Shown here piece by piece: positions 17,464 to 18,019 of a DNA stretch of 64,000 nt. A program made the position numbers and the translations under genes. The stretch lies in the NCBI RefSeq assembly GCF_003334305.1, contig NZ_QOWS01000022.1; one strand, written 5' to 3'. Under the pieces are notes generated by a model. It saw only the letters and a program-made list of their open reading frames with translations, was not told the DNA's origin and searched no databases. This DNA is from Escherichia coli. GTDB lineage: Bacteria; Pseudomonadota; Gammaproteobacteria; Enterobacterales; Enterobacteriaceae. The first letter of the stretch is position 1; each line of letters opens with the position of its first letter.

Positions 17464-17874
17464 AAGAAAACATCCCCTGAGAGTTTAATTTTCGTCAAGA
17501 TGCGTGGCGGACAATCCCCTGCCAGCGAAACGTTATCTTCCTGCTCCAGGTTTGCGACAATTTGCTGCGTCGCAAAAAAGCAAACGTTTAGCTCCGCGCA
17601 TACAAAACGGGTGGTAAAAAAAGCAAACGATTATCCGGCGATCATAGCGGCTTTTTCAACCGAAGTTTGCTGCTTTTTTCTCTTTTATTGTCTTGACGAT
17701 GAAAAACCAGGCAATTGATGCGCAAACGTTATCGTCGGTGCGCAAGATTGCAGCGTTATCGAGCCGTATACCGTTCAGGATTGCGATAAAAAATCGTCTG
17801 AGATGACAAAAATATTGCGGTTAAAAAGTATACTTTTACACTGGCGAAGAAACGTCGGTGACATACAATTAAAG

Positions 17875-18014
17875 CATCAACACCAACCGGAACCTCCACC
17901 ACGTGCTCGAATGAGGTGTGTTGACGTCGGGGGAAACCCTCCTGTGTACCAGCGGGATAGAGAGAAAGACAAAGACCGGAAAACAAACTAAAGCGCCCTT
18001 GTGGCGCTTTAGTT
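17875..18014 (+). ncRNA. sraL: Candidate small RNA SraL (RyjA), antisense-overlapping the soxR 3-prime end
   Basis: I recall SraL/RyjA mapping between soxR and yjcD on the opposite strand; a possible -10 (tacaat) near 17863 and a + strand terminator hairpin at 17988-18012; ends approximate. Confidence 0.45.
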
Positions 18015-18019
18015 TTGTT
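17988..18019. terminator. Bidirectional terminator hairpin shared by candidate SraL (+) and soxR (-)
   Basis: Stem ctaaagcgcc / ggcgctttag, loop cttgt, T-tract ttttgtt on + strand; soxR stop codon lies inside the right arm. Confidence 0.65.

What the first reader, a model, noticed from the sequence alone, without database searches (positions are those of the whole stretch)
17464..18019. Long ghxP upstream region with a candidate sRNA (SraL) sharing its terminator with soxR
There are about 545 bp of non-coding DNA between the ghxP start and the soxR stop. On the + strand a strong hairpin plus T-tract at 17988-18019 overlaps the soxR stop codon, and a -10-like tacaat lies roughly 140 nt upstream, which fits the size and position I recall for SraL/RyjA. 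The sRNA 3-prime end would be complementary to the soxR 3-prime end, allowing antisense interaction or termination interference.
Basis: partly seen in the sequence, partly recalled or inferred. Interest (0 to 1): 0.4.

Follow-up and report, generated by a model that had tools for sequence, protein, structure and literature searches.

The report
Known E. coli small RNA SraL/RyjA

Summary
Confirmed and already known. The window is E. coli, 100% identical to K-12 MG1655 over this locus. Rfam sraL (RF01408) matches window 17876-18016 (+) over the full model at 153.3 bits (gathering score 39). The curated MG1655 record annotates ncRNA ryjA (b4459) at exactly these bases, overlapping the soxR 3' end by 8 nt. 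The TACAAT -10 (17864-17869) lies 7 nt before the 5' end. A perfect 13-bp hairpin (17985-18015) plus T-tract contains the soxR stop codon. In 92 orthologous loci from other Enterobacteriaceae the sRNA, its -10/TTAA motif, its terminator and the convergent soxR are conserved, and the Rfam fold shows compensatory changes. Published work, mostly in Salmonella, shows sigma-S-dependent transcription, Hfq stabilisation, poly(A)-driven decay, repression of tig and anti-termination at the rho leader. The overlap with the soxR terminator was noted in 2007. The rest of the "long ghxP upstream region" is the ghxP promoter interleaved with PurR operators, one already reported by ChIP-chip as "ryjA/yjcD". 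A functional SraL-soxR antisense effect remains untested. The stop-in-hairpin overlap is specific to some lineages. Interest is low.

The parts
17876..18016 (+). sraL / ryjA small RNA gene (141 nt)
   Evidence: Rfam RF01408, 153.3 bits, E 1.1e-34, model positions 1-142. It is 100% identical to MG1655, where ncRNA ryjA b4459 is annotated at 4277926..4278066.
17864..17873 (+). sraL promoter: -10 TACAAT (17864-17869) followed by the TTAA A/T-rich discriminator. A degenerate -35-like CTGGCG lies at 17841-17846.
   Evidence: Read from the sequence. tAcA.TTAaa is conserved at >=90% across 92 promoter sequences. The sigma-S features and RpoS dependence are shown experimentally in Salmonella (PMC3753932). 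The -35 assignment is inference.
17985..18019 (.). Intrinsic terminator hairpin (arms 17985-17997 / 18003-18015, loop 5 nt) with a T-tract on the + strand and UUUGUUUU on the - strand. It is shared by sraL and soxR.
   Evidence: 13 bp perfect. The minus strand folds to the same hairpin, -30.4 kcal/mol, z -5.9. A sub-threshold Rfam hit on the minus strand reflects the palindrome. The hairpin is present in 92 of 92 orthologous loci. PMC2190706 states that the two terminators overlap.
18009..18473 (-). soxR coding sequence. Its last 8 nt, including the stop codon (18009-18016), overlap the 3' end of sraL.
   Evidence: ORF. TIGR01950 SoxR, 248 bits against a cutoff of 116.9. RefSeq annotation.
17887..17897 (+). 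Conserved, largely single-stranded 5' element CCGGAACCUCC (sRNA nt 12-22)
   Evidence: Upper-case (highly conserved) in the Rfam consensus. It is invariant in my alignment only because the search pattern required it.
17899..17909 (+). Candidate tig-pairing site: GUGCUCG at nt 28-34, with CAC just 5' of it
   Evidence: A 7-nt perfect complement to tig mRNA -29..-23, just 5' of the SD. This fits the '7 + 3 bp, a few nt upstream of the SD' site validated by compensatory mutations in Salmonella (PMC3753932). It is not above chance on its own (observed 2 heptamers, shuffle mean 1.83). The heptamer is present in only 20 of 86 orthologues.
17958..17983 (+). Near-invariant single-stranded A/G-rich stretch (sRNA nt 83-108; AAAGACAAAGACCGG)
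   Evidence: Mean top-residue fraction 0.94. The motif is in 76 of 86 unique orthologues and was not forced by the search pattern. Its role (Hfq contact or target seed) is inferred, not shown.
17720..17735 (-). PurR operator ACGATAACGTTTGCGC
   Evidence: Identical to the motif listed for the ChIP-chip region 'ryjA/yjcD' in Cho et al. 2011 (PMC3159470, Table 1). Found and conserved in the footprint.
17621..17659 (-). Predicted ghxP sigma-70 promoter: -35 TTGAAA (17659-17654), 18-nt spacer, -10 GATAAT (17635-17630). A PurR-type box GGATAATCGTTTGCTT (17636-17621) overlaps the -10.
   Evidence: Promoter scan, 10 of 12 matches. Both hexamers and the box are >=90% conserved over 70 unique sequences from many genera. 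No TSS data were consulted, so this is an inference.
17578..17593 (.). Second strong PurR-type box AAGCAAACGTTTAGCT in the predicted ghxP leader
   Evidence: Best match in the whole 64-kb window to ANGCAAACGTTTNCNT, with 1 mismatch. >=90% conserved.
16114..17463 (-). ghxP (yjcD) guanine/hypoxanthine transporter gene, divergent from sraL
   Evidence: ORF. RefSeq annotation of identical DNA. A PurR-repressed member of the purine regulon (PMC3809563, PMC8376909).

Best explanation
Window 17876-18016 (+) is the E. coli gene for the Hfq-binding small RNA SraL (RyjA). It is transcribed from a sigma-S-type promoter (-10 TACAAT plus TTAA) on entry into stationary phase or under osmotic stress. It ends at a strong Rho-independent terminator whose hairpin also serves the convergent soxR gene, with the soxR stop codon inside the 3' arm. 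The RNA folds into a 5' stem enclosing a variable region, a central pair of short hairpins, a conserved A/G-rich single strand and the terminator. It acts in trans by short imperfect base pairing. It represses tig (trigger factor) mRNA just upstream of its SD, and it pairs with the rho leader to block premature Rho-dependent termination. Its level is set by Hfq protection and by PAP I/PNPase/degradosome-dependent decay. The remaining ~410 bp of the intergenic region is the ghxP promoter and leader under PurR control. Shown here: identity, position, fold covariation, synteny, and conservation of the promoter and terminator. Taken from the literature, mostly Salmonella: RpoS dependence, Hfq, tig and rho regulation. 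Inferred: that the E. coli copy regulates tig and rho in the same way.
For: Rfam sraL at 153.3 bits against a gathering score of 39, full length (repeated). 100% identity to MG1655, with ryjA b4459 annotated at the same bases. The locus is present in 5421 of 5426 complete E. coli genomes. 92 orthologous loci have soxR convergent in 91 of 92, the terminator in 92 of 92, and an sRNA length of 133-149 nt. The -10/TTAA motif is conserved. On the Rfam structure, 94.6% of cells are paired against 39-54% in slid registers, and 10 pairs carry double-sided changes, reached by 0 of 500 shuffles. Literature: RpoS dependence by Northern blot, lacZ fusion and ChIP, and the tig interaction proven by compensatory mutations (PMC3753932). 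rho anti-termination (Silva 2019, as cited in PMC6582626 and PMC12360218). E. coli RyjA is detected, polyadenylated and up 3.84 log2 in a pcnB mutant (PMC5389530). It is listed among the RpoS-regulated, stationary-phase-induced E. coli sRNAs (PMC12266141). PurR ChIP region 'ryjA/yjcD' (PMC3159470).
Against: Nothing contradicts the identification. There are limits on the mechanism. The single-sequence fold is only modestly better than shuffles (z = -1.99). Helix 3 of the Rfam model is poorly supported (75% paired, no compensation). Complementarity of the E. coli copy to tig and to the rho leader is at chance level computationally. The tig-pairing heptamer is present in only 20 of 86 orthologues. 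The target experiments were done in Salmonella, not E. coli. My orthologue set was ascertained with a pattern that forces two segments to be invariant.
Confidence: 0.96

Rival explanations
1. Besides or instead of its trans targets, SraL works in cis. Because its 3' ~35 nt are perfectly complementary to the 3' end of the soxR mRNA, duplex formation (RNase III cleavage) or convergent-transcription interference at the shared terminator would couple sigma-S activity to soxR mRNA stability or termination.
For: There is an 8-nt overlap with the soxR CDS, and the whole hairpin is shared. The soxR stop lies inside or within 3 nt of the hairpin in 50 of 91 orthologous loci. An RNase III mutant accumulates a longer SraL species, and the authors suggest cleavage in the terminator that overlaps soxR's (PMC2190706).
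Against: No experiment shows any effect on soxR. In 41 of 91 loci the stop is 4 to 511 nt away from the hairpin, while the sRNA itself is fully conserved, so the overlap is not what selection maintains. The complementary segment is locked in a very stable intramolecular hairpin in both RNAs, which disfavours intermolecular pairing. Shared bidirectional terminators between convergent genes are common in E. coli (general knowledge).
Confidence: 0.12
2. The hairpin is simply the soxR terminator, the + strand 'gene' is not an independent functional RNA, and the tacaat is a chance match.
For: Generic promoter and terminator scans are not enriched over shuffles in this region, and the sigma-70 scan did not call the sraL promoter.
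Against: The full-length CM hit includes 105 nt upstream of the hairpin. There are compensatory substitutions in the 5' stem and central hairpin. The -10/TTAA motif is conserved. The transcript has been detected in E. coli and Salmonella (PMC5389530, PMC3753932, PMC2190706).
Confidence: 0.01
3. The transcript is a small mRNA: the AUG at about 17909-17911 opens a 26-codon ORF (MRCVDVGGNPPVYQRDREKDKDRKTN).
For: The ORF exists in the E. coli copy.
Against: No SD precedes it. Across 92 orthologues the longest ATG ORF changes frame and length (0, 7, 9, 17, 24-36 aa), and 18 loci have none. The nucleotide conservation pattern follows RNA helices, not codons.
Confidence: 0.02

Closest known systems
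SraL / RyjA (Rfam RF01408; E. coli b4459; Argaman 2001, Wassarman 2001; Silva 2013, 2019)
   Same: Everything tested: sequence (100% to MG1655), length, position convergent with soxR, sigma-S-type -10, terminator, and CM score far above threshold.
   Different: Nothing. This is the type locus. The function was characterised mostly in Salmonella, where the upstream neighbour is a putative GST gene (STM4267) rather than ghxP.
SdsR (RyeB), the other broadly conserved RpoS-dependent enterobacterial sRNA
   Same: A sigma-S-transcribed, stationary-phase, Hfq-associated trans-acting sRNA that also overlaps another transcript on the opposite strand (general knowledge; PMC3753932 draws the comparison).
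   Different: Unrelated sequence and different targets (ompD and others). It is not a family member.
Bidirectional intrinsic terminators between convergent genes
   Same: One palindromic GC-rich hairpin flanked by an A-tract and a T-tract, so that it presents a U-tail on both strands.
   Different: Here one of the two transcripts is an sRNA whose Hfq-binding 3' module is that same hairpin. The minus-strand U-tract (UUUGUUUU) did not pass the scan tool's T-run rule when the full 13-bp stem was used.
PurR operators of the purine regulon (consensus ACGNAAACGTTTGCNT)
   Same: Three conserved 16-bp boxes in the ghxP control region. One is identical to the published ChIP-chip motif (PMC3159470).
   Different: They belong to ghxP control, not to the sRNA. 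They lie 141 bp or more upstream of the sraL start.

Membership tests
SraL/RyjA sRNA (Rfam RF01408) | Covariance-model score at or above the curated gathering score, full length | tested here: met
   153.3 bits against 39, model positions 1-142 of 142, E 1.1e-34.
SraL/RyjA sRNA (Rfam RF01408) | Same locus as the annotated E. coli ryjA (b4459) | tested here: met
   100% identity over 181 nt. The annotation at 4277926..4278066 maps to window 17876..18016.
SraL/RyjA sRNA (Rfam RF01408) | Convergent with soxR and ending at or overlapping its 3' end | tested here: met
   8-nt overlap here. soxR is convergent in 91 of 92 orthologous loci.
SraL/RyjA sRNA (Rfam RF01408) | Consensus secondary structure maintained by compensatory change | tested here: met
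   94.6% of cells paired. 10 pairs with double-sided changes, reached by 0 of 500 shuffles. Slid registers give 39-54%. Helix 3 is weak, and two segments are invariant by ascertainment.
SraL/RyjA sRNA (Rfam RF01408) | Rho-independent terminator with U-tail (Hfq proximal-face module) | tested here: met
   13-bp perfect stem plus T-tract. Present in 92 of 92 loci.
SraL/RyjA sRNA (Rfam RF01408) | RpoS-dependent transcription | not testable with these tools
   The sequence has the -10 TACAAT plus TTAA features, conserved at >=90%. RpoS dependence is shown in Salmonella (PMC3753932) and listed for E. coli (PMC12266141).
SraL/RyjA sRNA (Rfam RF01408) | Hfq binding and stabilisation | not testable with these tools
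   Literature only (PMC3753932, PMC2190706, PMC2515195).
SraL/RyjA sRNA (Rfam RF01408) | Base pairing with the tig 5' UTR just upstream of the SD | tested here: inconclusive
   GUGCUCG (nt 28-34) is complementary to tig -29..-23, which is the expected geometry, but heptamer matches occur at chance frequency (observed 2, mean 1.83).
SraL/RyjA sRNA (Rfam RF01408) | Base pairing with the rho leader (anti-termination) | tested here: inconclusive
   The best local duplex is -18.8 kcal/mol at rho -152..-118, but 42 of 200 and 34 of 200 shuffles do as well. The primary paper is not held.
Bidirectional intrinsic terminator | Stable hairpin followed by a U-tract on both strands | tested here: inconclusive
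   The + strand passes the scan. The - strand folds to the same hairpin (z -5.9) and reads UUUGUUUUCC from the last stem bases, but it was not listed by the scan's T-run rule. No 3'-end mapping was consulted.
PurR regulon operator | 16-bp palindromic box matching the consensus, in a PurR-bound region | tested here: met
   17720-17735(-) equals the published motif ACGATAACGTTTGCGC (PMC3159470). 17578-17593 has 1 mismatch. All are conserved.

The most novel reading that the evidence does not exclude
The two near-invariant single-stranded elements of SraL (CCGGAACCUCC, nt 12-22, and AAAGACAAAGACCGG, nt ~90-104) are not the published tig-pairing site, which lies in the most variable part of the RNA. 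They may therefore be the seeds for the ancestral, still uncharacterised targets, or a distal-face Hfq site. Separately, the shared terminator may couple SraL to soxR mRNA fate in the lineages where the stop codon sits inside the hairpin.
Probability: 0.2. Interest if true: 0.3.

Novelty: already known. Interest (0 to 1): 0.05.

Why it matters
It matters little as a discovery. SraL/RyjA has been known since 2001 and is in Rfam and in the curated K-12 annotation. The practical points are minor. Automated PGAP annotations of E. coli genomes omit it. The "545-bp non-coding gap" is fully accounted for by an sRNA gene plus a PurR-controlled promoter. A cis effect on soxR remains an open but modest question.

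Tried and rejected
(1) Whole-molecule RNAduplex of SraL against the E. coli tig 5' region and the rho leader gave energies no better than shuffled sRNAs (139/300 and 274/300 do as well), so it is uninformative.

(2) Perfect-complement k-mer counts against tig and rho are at chance.

(3) A local duplex of the conserved A/G-rich stretch with the rho leader is not significant.

(4) The small-protein reading of the internal 26-codon ORF is rejected because the ORF is not conserved.

(5) A permissive Rfam scan of 17300-18100 found nothing except sraL and its own palindromic terminator on the other strand. There is therefore no known riboswitch or leader family in the ghxP 5' region.

(6) Window-wide counts of PurR-like patterns are not enriched. 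Only the local cluster, the exact match to the published motif and cross-genus conservation support them.

(7) The primary papers Wassarman 2001 (PMC312727) and Silva 2019 (PMC6386699) are not held in the library. Their content is cited only through papers that are held.

(8) A literature search for E. coli RIL-seq or Hfq data naming RyjA returned nothing specific.

(9) Salmonella was not recovered by my genome scan pattern, so the Salmonella copy was not compared directly.

Full report
OBSERVATION. The interval is as described. ghxP (ORF 16114..17463, minus strand) and soxR (ORF 18009..18473, minus strand) leave 545 bp between the ghxP start codon and the soxR stop. A perfect 13-bp inverted repeat (17985-17997 / 18003-18015, 5-nt loop) is followed by TGTT on the + strand. 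The soxR stop codon (tta on the + strand at 18009-18011) lies inside its 3' arm. tacaat is at 17864-17869.

IDENTITY. A gathering-threshold scan of the whole window against Rfam 15 places sraL (RF01408) at 17876-18016 on the + strand. The score is 153.3 bits against a gathering score of 39, E = 1.1e-34, covering model positions 1-142 of 142. A permissive scan of 17300-18100 found nothing else except the same model's terminator on the opposite strand at 23.7 bits, which only reflects the palindrome.

The 556-bp interval is 100% identical to many E. coli chromosomes and is present in 5421 of 5426 complete E. coli genomes. PGAP-annotated records list only soxR under the match. The curated K-12 MG1655 record annotates "ncRNA ryjA, b4459, small RNA RyjA" at 4277926..4278066, overlapping soxR (4277469..4277933) by 8 nt. 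Window 17850-18030 aligns to that stretch at 100% identity, so the annotated RNA is exactly window 17876-18016. SoxR is confirmed by TIGR01950 (248 bits, cutoff 116.9).

COMPARATIVE EVIDENCE. One scan of the species-representative genome collection with CCGGAACCTCC-N(25-40)-GGGGGAAACCC returned 92 loci. They come from Escherichia, Citrobacter, Enterobacter, Klebsiella, Raoultella, Kosakonia, Buttiauxella, Cedecea, Leclercia, Atlantibacter, Trabulsiella and others.

- soxR lies convergent and downstream of the sRNA in 91 of 92 loci. ghxP lies divergent and upstream wherever the fetched flank reaches.
- Every locus has the terminator hairpin, giving an RNA of 133-149 nt.
- The -10 and the A/T-rich discriminator (tAcA.TTAaa) are conserved at >=90%. 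The -35 is degenerate, as is usual for sigma-S promoters (features discussed in PMC3753932).
- On an alignment of 86 sequences (A2), the Rfam consensus structure has 94.6% of cells paired, against 39-54% when the 3' partners are slid by 1-3 columns.
- Ten pairs show changes on both sides, a count that 0 of 500 column shuffles reach.
- The compensation sits in the outer 5' stem (4 pairs) and the central hairpin (4 pairs). The terminator is nearly invariant, and helix 3 is poorly supported (75% paired).

There is a caveat. The two pattern segments are invariant by construction, and related sequences can beat column shuffles without structure. The slid-register control is the more meaningful one here. 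The single-sequence fold is only modestly better than shuffles (z = -1.99).

MECHANISM. This part comes from the literature and is marked as such. SraL/RyjA is a ~140-nt sRNA found in 2001. It accumulates in stationary phase. In Salmonella it is almost absent in an rpoS mutant, its promoter fusion depends on RpoS, and RpoS occupies the promoter in ChIP (PMC3753932). Hfq stabilises it. PAP I polyadenylation, PNPase and the degradosome drive its decay (PMC2190706, PMC3753932).

[quoted passage not shown] It also pairs with the rho leader over a putative rut site and prevents premature Rho-dependent termination (Silva 2019, as summarised in PMC6582626 and PMC12360218).

In E. coli itself, RyjA is detected as a full-length, polyadenylated transcript that rises 3.84 log2 in a pcnB mutant (PMC5389530). 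It is also listed among RpoS-regulated sRNAs induced in stationary phase (PMC12266141).

WHAT I COULD TEST OF THE MECHANISM. The E. coli copy carries GUGCUCG (nt 28-34, window 17903-17909), perfectly complementary to tig -29..-23, with CAC just 5' able to pair after a one-base bulge. That is the published geometry. Heptamer complements between these two sequences occur at chance frequency, however (observed 2, shuffle mean 1.83). The result is therefore consistent with the Salmonella data but is not evidence on its own.

Whole-molecule and local duplex energies against tig and the rho leader are not better than shuffles. The primary rho paper is not held, so the published pairing nucleotides could not be checked.

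THE soxR RELATIONSHIP. The minus strand folds into the same hairpin (-30.4 kcal/mol, z = -5.9) and then reads UUUGUUUUCC. The hairpin can therefore plausibly terminate soxR as well. The scan tool's T-run rule listed only the + strand.

Viegas et al. [quoted passage not shown] No effect on soxR has been shown.

Across 91 orthologous loci the soxR stop lies:

- inside the hairpin in 18;
- 0-3 nt from it in 32;
- 4-20 nt away in 15;
- 21-60 nt away in 15;
- more than 60 nt away in 11.

The sRNA is conserved in all of them. The literal CDS overlap is therefore a lineage feature (Escherichia, some Citrobacter, Kosakonia) and not what is being conserved.

THE REST OF THE "LONG ghxP UPSTREAM REGION". 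The only matches with <=2 mismatches to a PurR-box pattern in the whole 64 kb lie here, at 17578-17593 and 17720-17735. The latter, read on the minus strand (ACGATAACGTTTGCGC), is identical to the motif reported for the PurR ChIP-chip region named "ryjA/yjcD" (PMC3159470, Table 1). yjcD/ghxP is PurR-repressed (PMC3809563, PMC8376909).

A footprint over 70 unique ghxP upstream sequences shows >=90% conservation of three elements:

- a sigma-70-like promoter on the minus strand (-35 TTGAAA 17659-17654, 18-nt spacer, -10 GATAAT 17635-17630);
- a PurR-type box overlapping its -10 (17636-17621);
- the box at 17593-17578.

The promoter assignment and the ~160-nt leader it implies are inferences.

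In 53 of 71 loci the ghxP-to-sraL spacer is 1050-1300 bp. In the one such locus examined, Klebsiella pneumoniae L049, it contains a 230-aa ORF with a weak GST-fold match. This is probably the "putative glutathione S-transferase STM4267" that neighbours sraL in Salmonella (PMC3753932). Escherichia and Citrobacter lack it, which is why sraL abuts the ghxP control region here.

ALTERNATIVES REJECTED. A hidden small protein is not supported. The 26-codon ORF inside the sRNA has no SD, and its frame and length are not conserved; 18 loci have no ATG ORF at all. "Only a soxR terminator" is excluded by the full-length CM hit, the covariation upstream of the hairpin, the conserved promoter and the published transcripts.

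ONE THING LEFT UNEXPLAINED. The tig-pairing heptamer lies in the most variable segment of the RNA (nt 23-40, mean top-residue fraction 0.66; present in 20 of 86 orthologues). The unforced single-stranded A/G-rich stretch at nt 83-108 is nearly invariant (0.94; AAAGACAAAGACCGG in 76 of 86). What constrains it is not established by anything I could run or read.

VERDICT. The feature is the already known and annotated sRNA SraL/RyjA with its known shared terminator, next to a known PurR-controlled promoter. Interest is low (0.05).

Noticed in passing
window 17876-18016; loci L002 (NZ_CP025849.1) and L001 (NC_000913.3): PGAP-annotated RefSeq E. coli genomes list no feature for sraL/ryjA. Only soxR appears under the match. 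The curated MG1655 record does annotate it.
   Followed up: partly
window 17524-17735: A cluster of PurR-type boxes lies in the ghxP control region: 17720-17735 (equal to the published ChIP motif), 17621-17636 (overlapping the predicted -10 GATAAT), 17578-17593 (best match in the window) and a weak one at 17524-17539. The first three are conserved across genera. Only one motif is listed in the ChIP-chip table (PMC3159470).
   Followed up: partly
L049 2468-3160 (-), and 53 of 71 loci with a spacer of 1050-1300 bp: Most genera have a much longer ghxP-to-sraL spacer. In Klebsiella pneumoniae L049, the one locus checked, it holds a 230-aa GST-fold-like ORF (FzlA model 44.6 bits, far below the cutoff of 300). 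Escherichia and Citrobacter lack the extra ~700 bp, so sraL sits directly next to the ghxP promoter there.
   Followed up: partly
window 17899-17909 versus 17958-17983: The published tig-pairing site lies in the most variable part of SraL (heptamer in 20 of 86 orthologues). The A/G-rich single strand AAAGACAAAGACCGG is nearly invariant (76 of 86). The constraint on the latter is unexplained.
   Followed up: partly
L077 (JAEWQV010000038.1, 'Bacillota bacterium' MAG), L036 (CACSKA010000007.1, 'Chryseobacterium sp. 18061'), L008 and L015 ('Proteobacteria bacterium' MAGs): Records labelled as non-enterobacterial carry the enterobacterial ghxP-sraL-soxR locus. The L077 proteins are 100% identical to E. 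coli. This is probably contamination or mislabelled bins.
   Followed up: no
window 62151-62347 (+): Lysine riboswitch aptamer, 99.5 bits against a gathering score of 30. It is presumably the lysC leader.
   Followed up: no
window 60107-60256 (+): Rfam STnc430 (enterobacterial sRNA), 69.1 bits against a gathering score of 47, ending in a terminator-like hairpin.
   Followed up: no
window 10568-10638 (-) and 50706-50776 (-): Two naRNA4 (CssrE; REP-derived nucleoid-associated RNA) matches at 84.1 and 59.7 bits. The second is just at the gathering score of 59.5.
   Followed up: no
E. coli genome collection, query window 17464-18019: Three of the 5422 matching places are on records classed as plasmids, and 5 of 5426 complete genomes have no match.
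   Followed up: no
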